DNA from: an uncultured Poribacteria bacterium
GTDB taxonomy: Bacteria > Poribacteria > WGA-4E > WGA-3G
Direction of reading: 5' to 3'
DNA: 64,000 bases
Assembly (NCBI GenBank): GCA_958296135.2
Contig: CATQHZ020000001.1
Span: 1,504,001 to 1,568,000 of the forward strand
Under the pieces are notes generated by a model. It was not told the DNA's origin and did not search any database. It worked only from the letters and a program-made list of their open reading frames with translations. Within the stretch, counting starts at the first letter, position 1. Each line of letters opens with the position of its first letter. The translations under genes were made by a program, and so were the position numbers. This document shows positions 16,260 through 56,212 of this stretch, one piece after another.

Positions 16260-17297
16260 CTATTTCTCCTTTACAGGTTCGTGCTGCGTCTGTCCGAATA
16301 AGAATCCGAACGCGCCTAAAGGCAGGCAATACAACAAAATCATCAGGTGGAGGCTAAACCCGACGACGGTGCCAGTCTCTTTTGAGGTGCCGAAGAGGTG
16401 GAGCAGCCATACAAACGGAAACTCGGTTGTTCCGAAGTTGCCGACGGTTTGGATAGGTAGCAGGTTAAATCCATTTGTAAAGACGAGCGCGAACAGCACC
16501 TCAATCAACGGAATCTCAACGCCCATTTCGGCGACGAGGTAGCACTGAAACCCAAAACGAATTGCGAGGCAGAGGCATGAATATGCCCAAACCTTCAGAA
16601 ACGGATGGATGTGGCTTTTCATGGCCGTGGCCATCCGGACAATCTGCGTTACTTCGCGAATGACAGCCATTCCCTTGTTGACTATCCATGTGAGCGGCGT
16701 TTTATTAAGCCGCAGCAGCGGCATTGCGCATCTCTCGGCGAGAGCCGTGCAAGAATTGGGTGCAGCGCAAGCGAAAACCAGCACTGTCAGCAGCCCGCCT
16801 CCGATAAGCAGCGGCATCAGATAGAGCAATGTCCAACTGATGCTTTGCAAGCGCGCTTGCAGGAGTGAGGCTGTGCCTACCATCAAACCGATTAACAGGA
16901 GTAGATCGATGAGACTTGCGACGAGAAGCGATGCGATGCCTTGCGTTGCATTGACTTTCTGCCGCCGTTGCATCAGATAGACATAGGAGACATCCCCGGT
17001 CCGCATCGGCAGGAAATTCCCCCAGAAGGTGTGCAAGGCGAGAATGGGGAAGAGTTGATGCACCGGGCGGCTCTCCAATCCCAGTAATTCGCGGAAGCGG
17101 AGCGTTTTGCACCACACCAGCAGGCAGTAACAGCCGAATCCGATGAGCAGTGCCTTGATGGACAGTCGGCTCAGCGTTTTCGGTATCTCTCGGATGTCGA
17201 TTTCCTTTAATAGAAAGGAGGTGATGATTATCGCCAGTGCCGTGGGTAAGACGATTTTGGCAATTTGCCGGCATCGCGTTGTGTTTAAAAGCAGCAT
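16260..17297 (-). CDS. Lysylphosphatidylglycerol-synthase TM / flippase-like membrane protein
   Basis: Multiple TM helices, NFLPMRTGD, NLLP...GNFGTTE. Confidence 0.75.
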   Translation of the reverse strand: MLLLNTTRCRQIAKIVLPTALAIIITSFLLKEIDIREIPKTLSRLSIKALLIGFGCYCLLVWCKTLRFRELLGLESRPVHQLFPILALHTFWGNFLPMRTGDVSYVYLMQRRQKVNATQGIASLLVASLIDLLLLIGLMVGTASLLQARLQSISWTLLYLMPLLIGGGLLTVLVFACAAPNSCTALAERCAMPLLRLNKTPLTWIVNKGMAVIREVTQIVRMATAMKSHIHPFLKVWAYSCLCLAIRFGFQCYLVAEMGVEIPLIEVLFALVFTNGFNLLPIQTVGNFGTTEFPFVWLLHLFGTSKETGTVVGFSLHLMILLYCLPLGAFGFLFGQTQHEPVKEK

Positions 17298-17303
17298 TAT
17301 GTG

Positions 17304-17594
17304 CTATTTGCGTTTAAGTGCTTCCTGCGCGCGCCGCAGCGCGAAACGGGCATCAACATCATTTGGGTTTTGTTGAATCGCCGCCTTGAAGTCCTCAATA
17401 GCGGTATCAAGTTGCCCCAACCGATCCTTCGCCATTCCACGATTGTAGTAGGCATCAACGCGAGGGTTGAGTTGGATTGCCTTGTTATAGTTGACAATAG
17501 CGGCATGATATTGCCCAAGCATGTTCTTTGGCTCTCCCTGATTACGGAATGCTTCGGCACCCGCCTGTTTGGTTTGCATAATAGTATCCTCCAC
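17304..17594 (-). CDS. Small TPR-repeat protein
   Basis: AIVNYNKAIQLNP, AYYNRGMAKDRLGQLDTAIEDFKAAIQQNP. Confidence 0.8.
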   Translation of the reverse strand: MEDTIMQTKQAGAEAFRNQGEPKNMLGQYHAAIVNYNKAIQLNPRVDAYYNRGMAKDRLGQLDTAIEDFKAAIQQNPNDVDARFALRRAQEALKRK

Positions 17595-17626
17595 ATTTCT
17601 AAATCTTATTGAAGTTTACCTGATAA

Positions 17627-17655
17627 AGTATACCACGAAAATTTGTTTTTGTCAA
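17627..17655 (-). promoter_or_regulatory. sigma70 promoter for the TPR-flippase-amidohydrolase genes
   Basis: TTGACA-17 bp-TATACT with TG extension. Confidence 0.65.
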
Positions 17656-17670
17656 TTTTTACGAAAAAGT

Positions 17671-17700
17671 TTGACATAAGAATGCGAACTATGGTATGCT
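17671..17700 (+). promoter_or_regulatory. sigma70 promoter (presumed original mutS promoter, now upstream of tnpB)
   Basis: TTGACA-18 bp-TATGCT with TG extension; followed by AAAGGAG at 17754-17760. Confidence 0.55.
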
Positions 17701-17760
17701 ATATTAGGAAGATTTTTATGTCGCTTGCGAAGTTTGGGTTAAATAAATCACTGAAAGGAG

Positions 17761-19152
17761 GACGTTCCTAGCCCCCGAAAATCGAGCCACATCGTGGTAA
17801 AAGCGGATTTATCGTGATAAACGCCAACATAAGTGTTACCGTGTTGGGCAATGATATCACCGCCAGCGCATTGCCCACCTTGTGATAAAGGCAAACACGG
17901 CATACGGGAACACCTCATGAAAACGCACAATATTGCACTGCGCCCGACAGCGGCACAGGTTACCCAATTCCATCAGCACGCGGGCTATCGCCGATTTGTC
18001 TATAACGCTGCTTTGTCCGATTTCAAAGCAGGCTTAGCTGAAGGCGAATGGCGAAACGGCCGCACGTTGCGCACTCGGTTTAATGCCGTGAAGGACGCGC
18101 AGTTTGCGTGGCAGCAGCCGCTCATTGCGCGTGTTGCATCACATGCCTTCGATGATTTTAACACGGCGTGTCAACGGTGGAAAAACAAACTTGCCAAGTT
18201 TCCAAAGTATAAGCGGAAGTCGGGAAAGCAGTCCTTCCGCGTTGACAATAAACGTAACGCCATAACTTGTGATGGCAAGCGGCTTTTCCTGCCGAAGATA
18301 GGCTGGGTGCGGACGTTTGAAGCGTTGCGGTTCAAAGGCGACGTGATGCGCGTAGTGATTAAGAAGCGAGGGCATCGTTGGTTTGCATCGGTGCTCGTCG
18401 AAACCATGCCACTAGCCAAACCCGATTTACGCGGTTTGCCTACCGTGGGCATCGATGTGGGTATCAACACCCTCGCCACTTGCTCTGATGGACGCACCTT
18501 TGGAAACCCACGCGCCTTGGCCCGTTATCAACGTCAACTTTGCCGTGCGCAACGCGCCCTGAGTCGTTCAGTCTATCGCAGTCAGAATTGGTGGAAGAAG
18601 AAGGAACGTGTTGTCCGTATCCACTATCGCATCGCTTGCATCCGTGAGGATGCACATCACAAGGCAAGCACGGCGATTGTGCAGGGCGTGTCGGCGATAG
18701 GCATTGAGTCTCTGAACGTCAAAGGTATGCTCAAGAACCGTCGGCTTGCGAAAGCATTGTCGGACGCTGCACTGGGTGGATTCCTCACCAAGTTAAAGAC
18801 GAAGGCACAGGCACTCGGCGTGCGGATTGAGGAAGCCTCTCAGTGGTTCGCTTCATCGAAGACGTGCAGTGCATGCGGACATAAAAAGGATACCCTCACG
18901 TTATCGGAACGTGAGTATCACTGCAGTGACTGTGGGTTGCGGGCGGACCGCGACTGGAACGCTGCTATAAATTTAACCCCCTCGCCGCTGGTTTGACGGA
19001 GAGGTATGGGTGTTACCTCTCGTATCCGAGAGTTAATACCTTAAACGCTTGTGGAGCTCGTGTCAGACTTCGTTTGGAAGCAGTGAGTGTTGAAGCAGGA
19101 ACTTTAGAAATCGGACATAAGTATCCAGATATGTCTCGATTTCAGGGAACAG
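17761..19152 (+). mobile_element. tnpB-only IS607/IS1341-like element
   Basis: Both ends are homologous to the element at 54533-55162 (left ga..t.ctagc.cccgaaaatc; right tgaagcaggaactt...hairpin...ttc.gggaacag); no tnpA; boundaries +/-2 nt. Confidence 0.75.
17917..18996 (+). CDS. tnpB: RNA-guided endonuclease TnpB
   Basis: N-terminal HAGYRRFVYN; RuvC-I VGIDVG, RuvC-II IGIESLNV, Zn finger CSAC...CSDC, RuvC-III DRDWNAAINL; catalytic D-E-D intact. Confidence 0.92.
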   Translation: MKTHNIALRPTAAQVTQFHQHAGYRRFVYNAALSDFKAGLAEGEWRNGRTLRTRFNAVKDAQFAWQQPLIARVASHAFDDFNTACQRWKNKLAKFPKYKRKSGKQSFRVDNKRNAITCDGKRLFLPKIGWVRTFEALRFKGDVMRVVIKKRGHRWFASVLVETMPLAKPDLRGLPTVGIDVGINTLATCSDGRTFGNPRALARYQRQLCRAQRALSRSVYRSQNWWKKKERVVRIHYRIACIREDAHHKASTAIVQGVSAIGIESLNVKGMLKNRRLAKALSDAALGGFLTKLKTKAQALGVRIEEASQWFASSKTCSACGHKKDTLTLSEREYHCSDCGLRADRDWNAAINLTPSPLV

Positions 19153-19172
19153 AACGATATGCCACGTGTAAG
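18983..19172 (+). ncRNA. Predicted TnpB omega-RNA scaffold plus guide (guide covers the mutS start codon)
   Basis: ctggtttgac...aaacgcttgtggagctcg...tgaagcaggaac, terminal hairpin, gggaacag. TnpB guides are established to derive from the right flank. Confidence 0.6.
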
Positions 19173-21846
19173 ACTGTCCGAACCTTCGTTGATAGAAATC
19201 TATAAACAGGTTAAAAAACAGCATGAGGATGCCATCCTGCTTTGCCGGGTGGGTGATTTCTACGAGGCTTTCTATGAAGACGCGGAGTTAATCGCGCGCC
19301 TGTTGGAAATTACCCTGACGGCCCGGAGCCACAAGAACCAGAAAAAACCGTCGCCGCCGATGGCAGGTATCCCGCACCACGCGCTTGATTCCTACCTCTA
19401 TAAATTGGTGAAAGCCGGGCACAAAGTCGCCATTTTGGAACAGACGGAAGACCCGAGGCAGGCGCGCGATGAGAACCGTCTTGTCAAGCGCGATGTCGTC
19501 CGCATCGTGACACCCGGCACCGTCACCGATCCGAAGGTGCTTGAGCGTAAGGTGAACAACTACCTCATCTCGCTCTATCTGCGCAAGGGTACCTACGGGT
19601 TCGCCGCCGCCGATCTCTCCACCGGCGAATTTCTCGTCACAGAAGTGGCGGAGCTCTCCAAACTCTGGGCTGAAATCCATCGGTTTGCGCCGAAGGAATT
19701 CCTCTTCTCGGAAACCTTCAACGATGAGGAGATGTTGGAGCGGCTCAAAACCGAAGTGAAAGCGACGCTCAACTTTCTACCGGAGTGGCGGTTTGAATTC
19801 GACACCGCGCGCACCGAACTCCTGCAACACTTCCGCACGGTTTCACTGGATGGGTTTGGATGCGAACATCTGCCGATGGCTATCTGTGCCGCCGGCGCGC
19901 TCATCTATTACCTCCACGAAACCCAGAAGCAGGAGGTAGAACATATTCTGTCCCTCCAGCCCTATACGCTCTCGGATTTTATGGTGCTGGATGCCGATAC
20001 ACAGCGCAACCTGGAGTTGACGGCCTCTATTCGCGATGGCACTTCAAAGGGCACACTGCTTGAAGTGTTGGACCAGACGGCTACCTCGATGGGCGGCAGA
20101 AAGATTCGGCAGTGTCTCTTGCAACCGTTGCTTTCAACGGTAGAGATTGCGGCGCGCCTAGATGCAGTTGACGAGCTCAAGACGCAGATTAACCTTCAGG
20201 AAGAATTGCGGGAAGCCCTCGGACAGATGTATGATATGGAGCGGCTCATCTCCCGTATCAGCCTCGGGTCTGTGAACGGCCGCGACCTGCATTCACTCAA
20301 GGACTCGCTGTGCCTGATACCCGCGGTCAAGGCGCAGCTGGAGCACTGTGAGTCCCCGTTGTTAGTCGCGCAAAACGAGGCACTCGATCCGAGGACAGAT
20401 TTGGTGGCATTGATTGAGCGTGGTATTCATCCGAAGCCTCCGGTAACGATTCGCGAAGGTGGCATCATTCGCGATGGGTATAGCGAGGAGCTTGATGAGC
20501 TCCGACAGATTGTCGGGCAGGGGAAGGAGTGGATGGACGCGCTACAAGAGGCGGAACGCAAGAGCAGCGGCATTACCTCCCTGAAAATCGGATACAACCA
20601 GGTCTTCGGCTATTACATTGATGTGACGAAACCGAACCTGCACATGGTGCCGGACTACTACATCCGGAAGCAGACTTTGCGTAATTCCGAACGGTTCATT
20701 ACGCCGGAGCTTAAGGAGAAAGAAGCAATGGTGCTGAACGCGGAGGACCGGATTCAGACGCTGGAATACGAGCTCTTCTGTCAGATTCGGGAGGAGGTGG
20801 CGAAATGGACGAAGGCGATTCAAACTGTTTCTGCTGTTATCGCGATGGTTGACGTTATCGCAAACTTCGCTTATGTCGCCTCCAGATACAACTACGCCAA
20901 ACCTACTGTGGAGGATAGTGACGAGGTGATTATCCGCGATGGACGGCACCCGGTAGTGGAGCAATTGTTCACGCAAGAGGGATTCGTTCCGAACGACACG
21001 CGGCTTAACTGCGCCGATGAGCAGCTGCATATCATTACAGGCCCGAATATGAGCGGGAAAAGCACCTATTTGCGCCAGACAGCCCTCATCGTGTTGATGG
21101 CACAAGTGGGGAGTTTTGTGCCGGCCTCCGCTGCGAAAATCGGGTTAGTCGACCGGATTTTCACGCGCGTTGGCGCGTCTGACAACCTTGTGATGGGACA
21201 AAGCACGTTCCTCGTCGAGATGAACGAAACGGCGAACATTCTCAACAACGCCAGCAGTAAAAGCCTCGTCATTTTGGACGAAGTCGGGCGCGGCACTAGC
21301 ACATTTGATGGGCTCAGCATCGCGTGGGCAGTCTCGGAGTATTTGCTAGACGAAAAGCGGATGGGCGCGAAGACGCTCTTCGCCACGCACTACCACGAGC
21401 TGGTGGAGCTCGCTAGCAAGTACAAGCGCGCGAAGAATTACAACGTCGCCGTTCATGAAGATGGCGAAAAGGTGACGTTTCTCCGGAAAGTCGTGCCCGG
21501 TGGCGCAGACCAGAGTTACGGCATCCACGTCGCGCGATTGGCAGGATTGCCGCACGCGGTGATTGCGCGTGCGCAGCAGATTCTGGAGGTGTTGGAACAG
21601 CACAATATCAGCGTTGAGGCGGACAGCGCGACGGGACGGCCGCCGAAGGCGCATCCGAAGATGCCGCGGCCGCGGCGGCGTACCTCTCGTCAAACGCTGC
21701 AGAGCGACGCGTTGCAGATGGCACTCTTTACGCCGAAGACGCATCCCCTCGTTGAGGAAATCCGGCGGCTAGAGCTCTCGCAGGTGACACCTTTGGATGC
21801 GGTGAACATTCTCTACGATCTGAAGGCGCGGGCGGAAGAGGCGTGA
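19159..21846 (+). CDS. mutS: DNA mismatch repair protein MutS
   Basis: GDFYEAF, ITGPNMSGKSTYLRQ, IFTRVGASD, STFLVEM, DEVGRGTSTFDG, LFATHYHEL. Confidence 0.97.
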   Translation: MPRVRLSEPSLIEIYKQVKKQHEDAILLCRVGDFYEAFYEDAELIARLLEITLTARSHKNQKKPSPPMAGIPHHALDSYLYKLVKAGHKVAILEQTEDPRQARDENRLVKRDVVRIVTPGTVTDPKVLERKVNNYLISLYLRKGTYGFAAADLSTGEFLVTEVAELSKLWAEIHRFAPKEFLFSETFNDEEMLERLKTEVKATLNFLPEWRFEFDTARTELLQHFRTVSLDGFGCEHLPMAICAAGALIYYLHETQKQEVEHILSLQPYTLSDFMVLDADTQRNLELTASIRDGTSKGTLLEVLDQTATSMGGRKIRQCLLQPLLSTVEIAARLDAVDELKTQINLQEELREALGQMYDMERLISRISLGSVNGRDLHSLKDSLCLIPAVKAQLEHCESPLLVAQNEALDPRTDLVALIERGIHPKPPVTIREGGIIRDGYSEELDELRQIVGQGKEWMDALQEAERKSSGITSLKIGYNQVFGYYIDVTKPNLHMVPDYYIRKQTLRNSERFITPELKEKEAMVLNAEDRIQTLEYELFCQIREEVAKWTKAIQTVSAVIAMVDVIANFAYVASRYNYAKPTVEDSDEVIIRDGRHPVVEQLFTQEGFVPNDTRLNCADEQLHIITGPNMSGKSTYLRQTALIVLMAQVGSFVPASAAKIGLVDRIFTRVGASDNLVMGQSTFLVEMNETANILNNASSKSLVILDEVGRGTSTFDGLSIAWAVSEYLLDEKRMGAKTLFATHYHELVELASKYKRAKNYNVAVHEDGEKVTFLRKVVPGGADQSYGIHVARLAGLPHAVIARAQQILEVLEQHNISVEADSATGRPPKAHPKMPRPRRRTSRQTLQSDALQMALFTPKTHPLVEEIRRLELSQVTPLDAVNILYDLKARAEEA

Positions 21847-54520: not shown

Positions 54521-54532
54521 ACAAGAAAGGAG

Positions 54533-55162
54533 GAGAGTGCTAGCGCCCGAAAATCCGAGTAAATCGATTGAATTCTCGGTAAGTCTCGTTAATTCGTAAC
54601 ATATCTGATTTAAGTAGTTTTATCTCTCAGGTGAGAGGATGGCGAACGGAGCGTGAAGAGCGTTTCCTGCTGCACGATACCAAGAGGCAGGCGTAATGTC
54701 CTAACCCCCCGTGTGAAGCGGATTAATAGTCGGTGGTGCGAATGCATCGCTGACGGTGGAGGGGGCCGTAAGTCCGACGCGATTCCCTGCCGATTTTTGC
54801 GTAGGTAGTTTGTAATAACAAACTACCGAAGATGTGCTGTTTGGCTTTCGCAAACAGCACTGCGCAAAAATCGGAGAAAGGATTGTTTCGCTGCAGTATC
54901 TAGAACTACAAAGAAAACGTCGCGGCTGGTTTGACCGAGACGCAAAACGCCTGTGGAGCTCGCGTAAGACCTCGTAGTATTCGCATTTCTCCGATTTTGA
55001 CGCAGTGTTATTCGCAAAGCCGAATAACACATCTTCGGCATGCTTGGCTTTCGCAAGCATGCCTACGTCAAAATCGGCAGGTGCGTTTCGGAGGCGGTAA
55101 GTGATGAAGCAGGAACTTAGAAGTCTCGACTTATCTCGATCTGTTGAGACTTCGGGGAACAG
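54533..55162 (+). mobile_element. Non-coding IS607-like derivative carrying an orphan omega-RNA-like scaffold
   Basis: Both ends and the scaffold (ctggtttgac, aaacgcctgtggagctcg, tgaagcaggaactt, ttcggggaacag) align with 17761-19152; no tnpA or tnpB ORF. Confidence 0.7.
54786..55081. repeat. Inverted pair of about 95-bp three-way-junction palindromic units
   Basis: 54786-54879 and 54986-55081 are inverted homologs with a shared outer stem, a GAAGAT junction and covarying inner hairpins. Confidence 0.8.
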
Positions 55163-55174
55163 ACAGAAGCCACT

Positions 55175-56212
55175 ATGGCAGTCTCAACAATTGAATGGGC
55201 AGCTGGCAGAATTCGGATGATCGATCAGACACTGCTGCCCACTGAATTTAAGCAAATTTATTGCGATGACATCGCATCGGTGTGGGAAGCGATTAAATCT
55301 CTGCGCGTGCGCGGTGCCCCCGCTATCGGCATCGCCGGTGCACTCGGAGCTGTCCTCGGAATTTGGGATTCCACTGCGGCAACTTATGACGTATTCGCAG
55401 CGGAACTGAAATCCGCAACGAATTATCTGGCGACCTCGCGCCCGACAGCCGTTAACCTGTTCTGGGCACTAGACCGGATAAACCGCACGGCGGCGGAAAA
55501 CAGCCACCTTGAAATTCCCGCGCTCAAAGAACGGCTACTGGCAGAAGCACAGGAAATCATTGAGGAAGATAAGGCGATGTGTCGCGCCATCGGGCAGCAC
55601 GGGCTGGCGTTGTTGAATGAAAACGATACGATTCTGACGCATTGCAACGCCGGCGGCTTGGCGACATCCGATTACGGCACGGCGTTGGCTGTCATGTTCA
55701 GCGCGCACGAAGCCGGGAAGAATATCCAGGTCTACGCCGATGAGACGCGTCCCCTCTTACAGGGCGCGCGCCTGACAACGTGGGAATTGATGCAGGCCGG
55801 CATAGACGTGACACTCATCTGCGACAACATGGCGGCACAGGTGATGAAAGAAGGCAAAATCCAGTGCGTTATCGTCGGTGCCGACAGAATCGCTGCGAAC
55901 GGTGACACGGCGAACAAAATCGGCACTTACAATGTCGCTATCCTCGCCGAAGCGCACGGGATTCCGTTCTATGTTGCCGCGCCTACTTCTACCTTGGACT
56001 TCGCTTTGAAAACCGGCGATGAGATTCCGATCGAGCAGCGCGCCGCTGCAGAGGTAACAGAAGGGTTCGGCAAGATGACAGCCCCTGAAGGGGTGAAGGT
56101 CTACAGTCCCGCGTTTGATGTCACGCCGGCGGCGTTGGTTACGGCGATTATCACGGAGAACGGAGTCGCACGGCCGCCCTATACGGAGAGTCTGAGTGCG
56201 TTTCGGGAATAG
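55175..56212 (+). CDS. mtnA: S-methyl-5-thioribose-1-phosphate isomerase
   Basis: IDQTLLP, VRGAPAIG, SRPTAVNL, THCNAGGLAT, ETRPLLQGARLT, GDTANKIGTY. Confidence 0.95.
   Translation: MAVSTIEWAAGRIRMIDQTLLPTEFKQIYCDDIASVWEAIKSLRVRGAPAIGIAGALGAVLGIWDSTAATYDVFAAELKSATNYLATSRPTAVNLFWALDRINRTAAENSHLEIPALKERLLAEAQEIIEEDKAMCRAIGQHGLALLNENDTILTHCNAGGLATSDYGTALAVMFSAHEAGKNIQVYADETRPLLQGARLTTWELMQAGIDVTLICDNMAAQVMKEGKIQCVIVGADRIAANGDTANKIGTYNVAILAEAHGIPFYVAAPTSTLDFALKTGDEIPIEQRAAAEVTEGFGKMTAPEGVKVYSPAFDVTPAALVTAIITENGVARPPYTESLSAFRE

What the first reader, a model, noticed from the sequence alone, without database searches (positions are those of the whole stretch)
17753..19172. IS607-like TnpB element inserted between the Shine-Dalgarno motif and the start codon of mutS: a possible RBS-targeting transposon family
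Seen: the element (17761-19152) is flanked by AAAGGAG on the left and AACGAT-ATG(mutS) on the right. Clean removal gives AAAGGAG-AACGAT-ATG, a canonical RBS with 6-nt spacing downstream of a sigma70 promoter. A second, diverged family member (54533-55162) has the same left flank (GAAAGGAG) and also ends just before a housekeeping ATG (mtnA). Established: TnpB TAMs match the element's left-flank insertion motif, guides come from the right flank, and IS607 serine transposases cross over at a 2-bp core. Inference: this family uses the SD sequence (about GGAG, AG core) as insertion motif and TAM. It would capture host promoters, and its catalytically intact TnpB would be guided to the restored mutS RBS. 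The guide AACGATATGCCACGTG... spans the mutS start codon, so omega-RNA maturation could also clip mutS mRNA and modulate mismatch repair. The pattern rests on only two insertions.
Basis: partly seen in the sequence, partly recalled or inferred. Interest (0 to 1): 0.85.

Follow-up and report, generated by a model that had tools for sequence, protein, structure and literature searches.

The report
Transposon wedged into mutS ribosome site
A small IS607-type mobile element carrying an RNA-guided nuclease gene sits exactly between the ribosome-binding motif and the start codon of the DNA-repair gene mutS, and its relatives in this genome and in two other bacterial groups sit in the same kind of spot, a habit I could not find described in print.

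Summary
Window 17761-19152 is a non-autonomous IS607-family element: an intact tnpB, a RAGATH-18-like guide-RNA scaffold at the right end, and no tnpA. It lies precisely between GAAAGGAG and AACGAT-ATG(mutS). A same-genus relative has the empty site cactGAAAGGAG-aacgctATG.

The genome (a Candidatus Poribacteria relative) holds 16 elements with these ends:
- 8 TnpB copies
- 7 short non-coding derivatives, including window 54533-55162
- 1 autonomous copy with a serine-recombinase TnpA

GAG lies directly 5' of the left end in 15 of 15 readable left flanks, and GGAG in 13 of 15. In 12 of 16 a start codon with an ORF of at least 100 aa follows 4-12 nt after the right end.

The same pattern holds for bona fide RAGATH-18 IS607 elements with ...CAG ends: 15 of 17 distinct sites in Bacillus and 5 of 5 in a Secundilactobacillus.

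The TAM 5'-AGGAG is already published for IS607 TnpBs (Ren et al., Cell Res 2024), so the motif itself is not new. I did not find the systematic placement between Shine-Dalgarno motif and start codon in eight literature searches. Promoter capture, homing on the restored mutS site and any effect on MutS levels remain inference.

The parts
17671..17700 (+). Host mutS promoter-like site (TTGACA, 18-nt spacer, TG-TATGCT). After the insertion it would read into the element.
   Evidence: 10 of 12 consensus matches. A TTGACA...gctaYGGTATT arrangement recurs upstream of mutS in family relatives. Function is inferred.
17753..17760 (+). Host Shine-Dalgarno motif GAAAGGAG. It is the left flank, the target motif and the presumed TAM (AGGAG).
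   Evidence: The empty site in G001 keeps it joined to aacgctATG. It pairs with the genome's 16S tail ...CACCUCCUUUCU at -12.7 kcal/mol.
17761..19152 (+). Non-autonomous IS607-family element, family A copy A1, 1392 bp. The boundaries are ambiguous by the 2-bp AG core.
   Evidence: Eight copies in the genome at 83-100% DNA identity with different flanks. Empty site.
17761..17838 (+). Left end. About 35 nt (NNNNGTNCTAGNNCCCGAAAATC(C)GAG..ATCG) are shared with families B and C, so this is the presumed TnpA-binding region. It contains GAAAATCGAG, the inverted repeat of the right-end CTCGATTTC.
   Evidence: Binding is inferred.
17917..18996 (+). tnpB, 359 aa, RuvC D/E/D and zinc-finger cysteines present.
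19045..19101 (+). RAGATH-18-like core of the guide-RNA (reRNA/omega-RNA) scaffold.
   Evidence: Rfam RF03064 matches full length at 20 bits, below the gathering score of 44.9 (E 0.19), and at 27.3 bits in copy A2. In 9 homologues 10 of 15 predicted pairs show compensatory changes. The motif ends 51 nt before the right end, as in ISFba1.
18966..19152 (+). Approximate extent of the guide-RNA scaffold. It is placed by analogy with the 187-nt ISFba1 scaffold and overlaps the last 30 nt of tnpB.
   Evidence: Inferred from PMC11061315. The short family B derivatives retain this stretch, including the tnpB 3' remnant.
19153..19172 (+). Presumed guide template: the first 20 nt of the right flank, spanning the mutS start codon.
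   Evidence: Inferred from the known TnpB/reRNA architecture. No RNA data.
19159..21846 (+). mutS, intact 895-aa ORF, now separated from its SD by 1392 bp.
54525..54532 (+). Host SD-like motif GAAAGGAG, left flank of the second element.
54533..55162 (+). Family B copy B3, 630 bp. It is a non-coding internal-deletion derivative with the left end, a tnpB 3' remnant and a RAGATH-like right end, and it is interrupted by nested palindromic repeats.
   Evidence: Seven copies in the genome.
55175..56212 (+). mtnA-like gene (IF-2B family). Its ATG lies 12 nt after the right end of B3.

Best explanation
Window 17761-19152 is a non-autonomous IS607-family insertion sequence. It carries an intact RNA-guided nuclease gene (tnpB) and a RAGATH-18-type guide-RNA scaffold at its right end, but no transposase. 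It is most likely moved in trans by the serine-recombinase TnpA of the single autonomous element in the genome that shares its ends (C1:4836195-4838048).

That recombinase would cross over at a 2-bp AG core. The core is present at the right end (...AACAG) and in the target (A/G)GGAG, so the element lands scarlessly just 3' of an AGGAG-like motif and in one orientation. In non-coding DNA that motif is mostly the Shine-Dalgarno sequence. The elements therefore end up between the SD and the start codon of host genes, co-oriented with them. Here the gene is mutS.

By analogy with characterised IS607 and IS605 systems, TnpB with its guide RNA recognises AGGAG as TAM plus about 20 nt of right flank. 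That combination exists only at the empty site, so TnpB would cut an excised donor site and restore the element by recombination.

Shown here: the anatomy, the boundaries, the copy family, the target motif, the position relative to start codons, and the occurrence of the same pattern in three bacterial lineages. Inferred: trans-mobilisation by that TnpA, the TAM of this particular TnpB, transcription from the mutS promoter, and reduced MutS translation.
For: Identity of the element:
- Pfam finds the TnpB domains.
- Eight copies with different flanks have intact ORFs, and the median dN/dS over 28 pairs is 0.10.
- The autonomous copy has a MerR-HTH plus Resolvase TnpA and the same terminal sequences.

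Target and position:
- GAG is the left flank in 15 of 15 and GGAG in 13 of 15.
- In 12 of 16 a start codon lies 4-12 nt after the right end, opening an ORF of at least 100 aa. Nine of those 12 ORFs have Pfam support for a true N-terminus.
- Empty sites were found at 3 of 3 loci that have a same-genus orthologue.
- Background rates are 8.3% and 16% for RRGAG sites and 25.7% and 52% for AAGGAG sites.

Guide RNA:
- The RAGATH-18-like motif has 10 of 15 covarying pairs.
- 13 of 20 Firmicutes loci holding TnpB relatives carry bona fide RAGATH-18.

Published mechanism (passages read):
- The TAM is 5'-AGGAG in 18 of 22 strains for IS607 TnpBs with RAGATH-18 reRNA.
- In an IS607 IStron the TnpA target equals the TnpB TAM.
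- IS607 integrates at a 2-bp core without target-site duplication.

Generality:
- In Bacillus AG-type elements, 15 of 17 distinct sites have a start codon 5-11 nt after the right end, with AAGGAG as left flank in the 3 of 3 whose left flank was located.
- In Secundilactobacillus, 5 of 5 have an ATG 6-13 nt after the right end, with left flank AGGAG in 4 of 5 and GGGAG in 1 of 5.
Against: - Four of 16 copies are not at a start codon. A5 and A8 may lie near the 3' end of short frames. B2 has its ATG 30 nt away with its own GGAGG. B7's nearby ATG opens a frame under 60 codons.
- For families B and C the motif AAGGAG together with loss of intragenic insertions already predicts about 52%, so their 6 of 8 is not significant on its own (P 0.17).
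- Rfam's RAGATH-18 model scores below its gathering threshold here and found nothing in copy B4.
- Of the six TAM-contacting residues named for ISFba1, only N61 and N121 are identical, K80 and Y117 are conservatively replaced, and K83 and N122 differ (my reading of the alignment, with an assumed 3-residue numbering offset). The TAM of this TnpB therefore cannot be read from the protein.
- The autonomous copy's own TnpB is only 26% identical and lacks the zinc-finger cysteines. Families A and C share ends, not cargo.
- There is no expression data and no excised form in public contigs; neither bears on the claim.
Confidence: 0.85

Rival explanations
1. The SD-to-ATG position is more than a by-product of the motif. 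Elements persist only where a host promoter transcribes tnpB and the guide RNA, because homing then protects them. Alternatively, the recombinase reads extra features of translation-initiation regions. On this view the family is a dedicated ribosome-binding-site or 5'-UTR transposon.
For: Family A scores 6 of 8 against 16% expected for RRGAG sites outside deep coding sequence (P 3.5e-4). No + strand promoter-like site was found inside the element. In Bacillus and Secundilactobacillus the right ends offer little SD-like pairing (-5.4 and -2.4 kcal/mol). An insertion there should cost the host gene its translation, yet 15 of 17 and 5 of 5 sites are of this kind.
Against: Families B and C fit motif plus purifying selection (P 0.17). 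The promoter scan is a crude consensus match. Kin copies and orthologous sites are not fully independent.
Confidence: 0.35
2. GAAAGGAG belongs to the element, which would then carry its own SD-like left terminus. On this view the flank is not a target.
For: Ten bases (GAAAGGAGGA) are identical at the two window copies. All 6 family B copies show AAGGAG.
Against: Positions -4 and -5 vary among family A copies: AGGAG 4, GGGAG 2, GAGAG 1, AAGAG 1. Relatives without the element keep (A)AGGAG joined to the right flank at mutS and at the TPP-enzyme gene.
Confidence: 0.02
3. The element is an IS200/IS605- or IS1341-type unit moved as single-stranded DNA by a Y1 (HUH) TnpA that cuts 3' of a GGAG tetranucleotide.
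For: The nearest solved TnpB by sequence is ISDra2 of IS200/IS605 (E 3.8e-46), about as close as the IS607 ISFba1 TnpB 8IAZ (E 2.7e-45). A small hairpin lies near the right end. Two Y1_Tnp matches exist in the genome.
Against: The two Y1 matches (C1:3734478 and 4791155) are not next to any of the 16 elements. The only autonomous copy with these ends encodes a serine recombinase. [quoted passage not shown] The same dinucleotide stands at both junctions, as expected for serine-recombinase crossover.
Confidence: 0.04
4. The copy at mutS is a domesticated RNA-guided regulator, like the TldR proteins. It would have been kept because it controls mutS, rather than being a selfish insertion.
For: The guide template spans the mutS start codon. 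tnpB is under purifying selection.
Against: The RuvC D/E/D and zinc-finger motifs are intact in 8 of 8 copies. The insertion is missing from both same-genus genomes searched. Sister copies sit in front of unrelated genes: Macro, TPP enzyme, ABC ATPase, M24 peptidase. While the element is in place, the guide's target adjoins the right end ...AACAG rather than an AGGAG TAM.
Confidence: 0.04

Closest known systems
IS607-family TnpB with RAGATH-18-derived reRNA (ISFba1 and 22 others; Ren et al., Cell Res 2024, PMC11061315, PDB 8IAZ)
   Same: A TnpB of about 360-390 aa is followed by a right-end scaffold RNA containing a RAGATH-18-type motif that ends about 51 nt before the guide. The TAM is 5'-AGGAG, which is the flank seen here. 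The serine-recombinase partner is often missing or decayed. Sequence match to 8IAZ is E 2.7e-45.
   Different: The RNA motif here is a shorter variant that scores under Rfam's threshold (20-27 bits against 44.9). Two of six named TAM-contact residues differ. The host is a Poribacteria relative rather than gut Firmicutes. The passages and word searches of that paper gave no occurrence of ribosom, RBS or start codon, so the SD placement is not discussed in its main text. Its supplements could not be read.
Clostridium botulinum IS607 IStron (Zedaveinyte et al., bioRxiv 10.1101/2023.11.20.567912)
   Same: The serine TnpA excises scarlessly through a circular intermediate and integrates at a short motif that equals the TnpB TAM. 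TnpB cuts the donor joint and promotes retention. The right end mimics the TAM with a mismatch that prevents self-cleavage (TCGG against TGGG there; AACAG against AGGAG here).
   Different: Target and TAM are TGGG with a GG core there, AGGAG with an AG core here. There is no group I intron here.
IS607 of Helicobacter pylori (Kersulyte 2000, recalled; Chen et al., eLife 2018, PMC6188088)
   Same: There are no terminal inverted repeats and no target-site duplication. The TnpA is a serine recombinase with an N-terminal MerR-like HTH. The same dinucleotide stands at the element terminus and in the target.
   Different: The canonical core is GG, with little further target preference. Here the core is AG inside a 5-6 nt SD-like motif.
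IS1341-type tnpB-only elements and short non-coding derivatives of IS200/IS605/IS607 elements (names recalled; IS1341 is described in PMC9956272)
   Same: Family A has tnpB only. Family B keeps only the ends and the guide-RNA region. Both depend on a transposase supplied in trans.
   Different: Here the source of the transposase can be named, because one autonomous copy shares the ends.

Membership tests
IS607 family | Serine-recombinase TnpA with an N-terminal MerR-like HTH | tested here: inconclusive
   Absent from the window element itself. Present in the one autonomous genome copy with the same ends (Resolvase E 6e-14, plus MerR/HTH_17). So the family meets the feature and this copy is non-autonomous. 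The catalytic serine was not checked.
IS607 family | No terminal inverted repeats, no target-site duplication, and an identical 2-bp core at the element end and in the target | tested here: met
   Empty sites join the flanks without duplication. AG precedes both junctions in all copies. The core is AG rather than the usual GG.
IS607 family | Short TnpA-binding repeats in both ends | tested here: inconclusive
   The motif AAATCGAG/CTCGATTT occurs in the left and right ends of families A, B and C. Binding was not tested.
TnpB (OMEGA) RNA-guided nucleases | RuvC-like D/E/D triad and a CxxC...CxxC zinc finger | tested here: met
   GIDVG, IESL and DRD motifs with no internal stops in 8 of 8 copies. 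The cysteines are visible.
TnpB (OMEGA) RNA-guided nucleases | Guide RNA whose scaffold ends at the right end and whose guide is the flank | not testable with these tools
   There is a structured, covarying RNA motif at the expected place, but no RNA run is listed.
RAGATH-18 (Rfam RF03064) reRNA | Score at or above the curated gathering threshold (44.9 bits) | tested here: not met
   20.0 bits and 27.3 bits. Both are full-length matches that keep the GUGGAG...UGAAGCAGGAA signature. The same three-helix layout is supported by 10 of 15 covarying pairs. This works like RAGATH-18 and is best called a divergent variant.
AGGAG-TAM clade of IS607 TnpBs | Measured TAM 5'-AGGAG | not testable with these tools
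   Inferred from the left flanks: AGGAG 4, GGGAG 2, GAGAG 1, AAGAG 1 in family A. It needs a TAM-library assay.
IS200/IS605 family | Y1 (HUH) TnpA associated with the element ends | tested here: not met
   The two Y1_Tnp matches in the genome lie away from all 16 elements.

The most novel reading that the evidence does not exclude
The AG-core, AGGAG-targeting branch of IS607 is a specialised ribosome-binding-site transposon found in distant bacterial phyla. By landing between the SD and the start codon it borrows the host promoter and 5'-UTR to express its nuclease and guide RNA, and it unplugs the host gene from its SD. Because serine-recombinase excision is scarless, it can act as a reversible translational switch. 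At mutS that would mean switching between normal and mutator states, with TnpB homing setting the bias.
Probability: 0.25. Interest if true: 0.8.

Novelty: new member of a known kind. Interest (0 to 1): 0.6.

Why it matters
The element itself belongs to a described kind: IS607 TnpB with a RAGATH-18-type guide RNA and an AGGAG TAM. What the data add is where such elements live.

- In a Poribacteria genome, in Bacillus and in a Secundilactobacillus they sit a few bases in front of start codons, having split the host SD from its gene.
- If this holds generally, it explains how promoter-less tnpB-only elements get transcribed.
- It predicts that each insertion lowers translation of a specific host gene, here the mismatch-repair gene mutS.
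- It offers a natural, scarlessly reversible way to turn genes down.
- It warns annotators that a gene with a TnpB element just upstream may have lost its ribosome-binding site.
- It matters for genome-editing use of these nucleases, since their TAM coincides with the bacterial SD.

Tried and rejected
- Rfam at gathering thresholds and at E up to 1 over window 17000-20000 gave only a spurious microRNA hit. RAGATH-18 appeared only when 241 bases were searched alone.
- No RNA holder is listed for this stretch. Public contigs of four runs covered both junctions but showed no joint across the element. Neither says anything about expression or excision.
- An empty site for copy A7 (M24 peptidase gene) could not be checked. 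The same-genus genomes gave only distant paralogues (31% identity), and the orthologues in other genera have unrelated upstream sequence.
- Reading the TAM from the protein failed. The ISFba1 contact residues are only partly conserved, and my residue mapping assumes a 3-residue offset between the paper and the PDB chain.
- The idea that the right end supplies a substitute SD is weak. Pairing with the 16S tail is -4.9 to -6.6 kcal/mol against -12.7 for the intact site, similar to the -4.3 in front of tnpB itself, and it is absent in the Firmicutes elements.
- Not every RAGATH-like IS607 does this. Five GG-core copies in a MAG labelled Trueperaceae have NGGG left flanks and no gene start nearby (judged by eye, one ATG opens about 22 codons).
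- Many right ends in relatives of this genome end ...ACAACGG. Their flanks were not analysed.
- Eight literature searches, with passages from PMC11061315, 10.1101/2023.11.20.567912, PMC6188088, PMC13565253, PMC9956272 and PMC3231932, found no statement that IS607/TnpB elements insert between SD and start codon. Supplements are closed and subscription journals are not covered, so this is 'not found', not 'not in print'.
- Only 30 of the 78 Bacillus matches were fetched as loci (plus 3 earlier ones). One of the 33 had no recognisable right end and was dropped. Orthologous sites were merged by the first 20 residues of the downstream ORF.
- The downstream ORF of copy B6 (458 aa) was not scanned against Pfam.
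Full report
**What is in the window**

GAAAGGAG lies at 17753-17760. The element runs from 17761 (GACGTTCCTAGC...) to 19152 (...TTTCAGGGAACAG). The spacer AACGAT follows, and the ATG at 19159 opens an 895-aa ORF with all five MutS domains. Inside the element, 17917-18996 encodes a 359-aa TnpB (OrfB_IS605, Cas12f1-like_TNB, HTH_OrfB_IS605).

A promoter-like site lies upstream: TTGACA at 17671, 18 nt, then TG-TATGCT. A simple scan found no + strand promoter-like or terminator-like site inside the element.

The second copy (54533-55162) has the same left flank. It ends 12 nt before the ATG of an IF-2B/MtnA-family gene and has no tnpB.

**The family in the genome**

The window is G000:C1:1504001-1568000, and the genome holds 16 elements with these ends.

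- Family A has 8 copies with tnpB at 83-100% DNA identity. Four of them carry about 200 extra bases near the left end.
- Family B has 7 short non-coding copies of 452-803 bp. They keep the left end, a remnant of the tnpB 3' end and the right-end RNA region. Most are interrupted by a nested palindromic repeat.
- One autonomous element (C1:4836195-4838048, 1854 bp) shares the termini and encodes a 208-aa MerR-HTH plus Resolvase TnpA. It also encodes a divergent TnpB, 26% identical and lacking the zinc-finger cysteines.

The two Y1-transposase matches in the genome are not near any of these elements. Families A and B are non-autonomous and share their recombinase-binding ends with one autonomous copy.

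All eight family A tnpB genes are intact, keep the RuvC and zinc-finger motifs, and evolve under purifying selection. Median dN/dS over 28 pairs is 0.10, with dS between 0.11 and 0.58.

**Target site**

GAG precedes the left end in 15 of 15 readable copies; copy B6 has lost its left end. GGAG precedes it in 13 of 15 and AGAG in 2 of 15. Family A shows AGGAG 4, GGGAG 2, GAGAG 1 and AAGAG 1. Families B and C show AAGGAG in 7 of 7. Every right end stops at ...AACAG, so AG stands at both junctions, as expected for a serine-recombinase crossover at a 2-bp core.

The motif is host sequence, not part of the element. Same-genus genomes without the insertion read as follows:
- at mutS, cactGAAAGGAGaacgctATG and AGGAGaacactATG
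- at the gene behind copy A3, ACAAGGAGacaccccATG
- at mtnA, a site of identical length

**Position relative to genes**

In 12 of 16 copies an ATG or GTG opening an ORF of at least 100 aa lies 4-12 nt after the right end. Nine of those ORFs have Pfam domains that start at the N-terminus: MutS, MtnA, Macro, TPP enzyme, ABC ATPase, M24 peptidase, PhyH, NTP_transf_2 plus HEPN, and MoCF_biosynth. Two have no Pfam match and one was not scanned. Four copies are exceptions.

Background rates in this genome are:

| Sites | All sites | Outside deep coding sequence |
|---|---|---|
| RRGAG | 8.3% | 16% |
| AAGGAG | 25.7% | 52% |

Family A's 6 of 8 is far above expectation (P 8e-6 and 3.5e-4). The 6 of 8 of families B and C is compatible with motif plus loss of intragenic insertions (P 0.17).

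**Guide RNA**

Rfam's RAGATH-18 model matches 19048-19101 full length but below threshold (20 bits against 44.9; 27.3 bits in copy A2). Nine homologues from this bacterial family fold into the same three-helix layout, and 10 of 15 pairs show compensatory changes. The motif ends 51 nt before the right end, as reported for ISFba1. Thirteen of 20 Firmicutes loci that encode relatives of this TnpB carry bona fide RAGATH-18 just downstream.

**What is already known**

- Ren et al. (PMC11061315, passages read) measured TAM 5'-AGGAG for IS607 TnpBs from 18 of 22 strains and GAGGG for 4 of 22, and solved ISFba1 (8IAZ). That paper's main text holds no occurrence of ribosom, RBS or start codon.
- Zedaveinyte et al. 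(10.1101/2023.11.20.567912, passages read) showed for a GG-core IS607 that the TnpA target equals the TnpB TAM. They also showed that TnpB cuts the donor joint and that the right end mimics the TAM with one discriminating mismatch. Here AACAG against AGGAG would play that role.
- Chen et al. (PMC6188088, passages read) document GG targets without duplication.
- A 2026 review (PMC13565253) repeats the AGGAG/GAGGG TAMs without mentioning the SD.

**Generality**

*Bacillus.* RAGATH-18 matched in 40 of 71 genomes searched. I examined 33 loci: 30 of the 78 matches, plus 3 fetched earlier. One had no recognisable right end. The 22 loci with ...GTAGCAG ends form 17 distinct sites, and 15 of those have a start codon 5-11 nt away with an ORF of at least 80 aa (11 ATG, 1 GTG, 3 TTG). 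The 10 loci with ...CAACGG ends form 7 distinct sites, and 4 of those have a start codon at 3-9 nt. The left flank is AAGGAG in the 3 of 3 Bacillus copies whose left flank was located.

*Secundilactobacillus.* Five of 5 copies have AGGAG or GGGAG on the left and an ATG 6-13 nt after the right end.

*Counter-example.* Five GG-core copies in a MAG labelled Trueperaceae have NGGG flanks and no gene start nearby.

**Mechanism and consequences (inferred)**

The element would be transcribed from the mutS promoter. TnpB plus guide RNA would recognise AGGAG followed by AACGATATGCCACGTGTAAG only at an empty site, and would restore the element after excision.

MutS translation is probably lowered. The intact SD pairs with the 16S tail at -12.7 kcal/mol, while the best pairing in the right end plus spacer is -4.9 kcal/mol.

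Whether guide-RNA processing cuts the mutS message cannot be tested here. No RNA run is listed, and public contigs show no excised form.

**Verdict**

The core interpretation is supported and now rests on dozens of insertions in three lineages rather than two. The element is a new member of a known kind. The systematic placement between SD and start codon is the part I could not find in print. The nearest named relative of the genome is a Candidatus Poribacteria MAG.

Noticed in passing
window 54787-54880 and 54986-55081; also G000:C1 at about 20 other places (e.g. 16694-16784, 203000-203102, 1432558-1432649, 3122188-3122290, 4732687-4732789): A palindromic repeat of about 95 bp, MITE-like, is nested twice in inverted orientation inside family B copies. 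It also lies in the roughly 200-bp extra segment near the left end of copies A3-A6. Several copies sit about 250 bp upstream of other tnpB genes, so it may be the end of another TnpB element.
   Followed up: partly
G000 whole genome: The search with the window TnpB gave 37 matches in the genome. They fall into several subfamilies at about 92-100%, 54-56% and 45-49% identity, plus fragments. One is a second tnpA-tnpB IS607 pair at C1:3726105-3727644. A third resolvase gene lies at C1:3568418-3568783.
   Followed up: partly
L035 363-1490 (- strand) = G000:C1 about 4836280-4837407: The TnpB of the autonomous copy is only 26% identical to the window TnpB. It lacks the four zinc-finger cysteines and has no glutamate at the usual RuvC-II position (LLPTFETK instead of IGIESL). 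Elements with the same ends therefore carry very different nucleases.
   Followed up: no
Bacillus loci L212, L214, L220/L230, L222/L223/L226: GG-core RAGATH-18 elements (...GGCAACGG) also lie 3-9 nt before start codons at 4 of 7 distinct sites. This may be the published GAGGG-TAM type. Their left flanks were not fetched.
   Followed up: no
L229: One Bacillus AG-type insertion sits 11 nt before a TTG-started ORF beginning LERQFEIVSAYSPQGDQP. From memory this looks like the N-terminus of the excision-repair protein UvrB. If so, it would be a second DNA-repair gene behind such an element. It was not verified by any search.
   Followed up: no
window 17627-17700: Back-to-back promoter-like sites. 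The - strand has TTGACA-17-TATACT (11 of 12) facing the 99-aa ORF at 17297-17596, which has no Pfam match. The + strand site faces mutS.
   Followed up: no
L082 (G001:C71, - strand): A same-genus genome has a related right end, ...AAAAAGGAACAG, followed by ggctaacATG. This is another SD-ATG-type insertion at a locus not occupied in the window genome.
   Followed up: no
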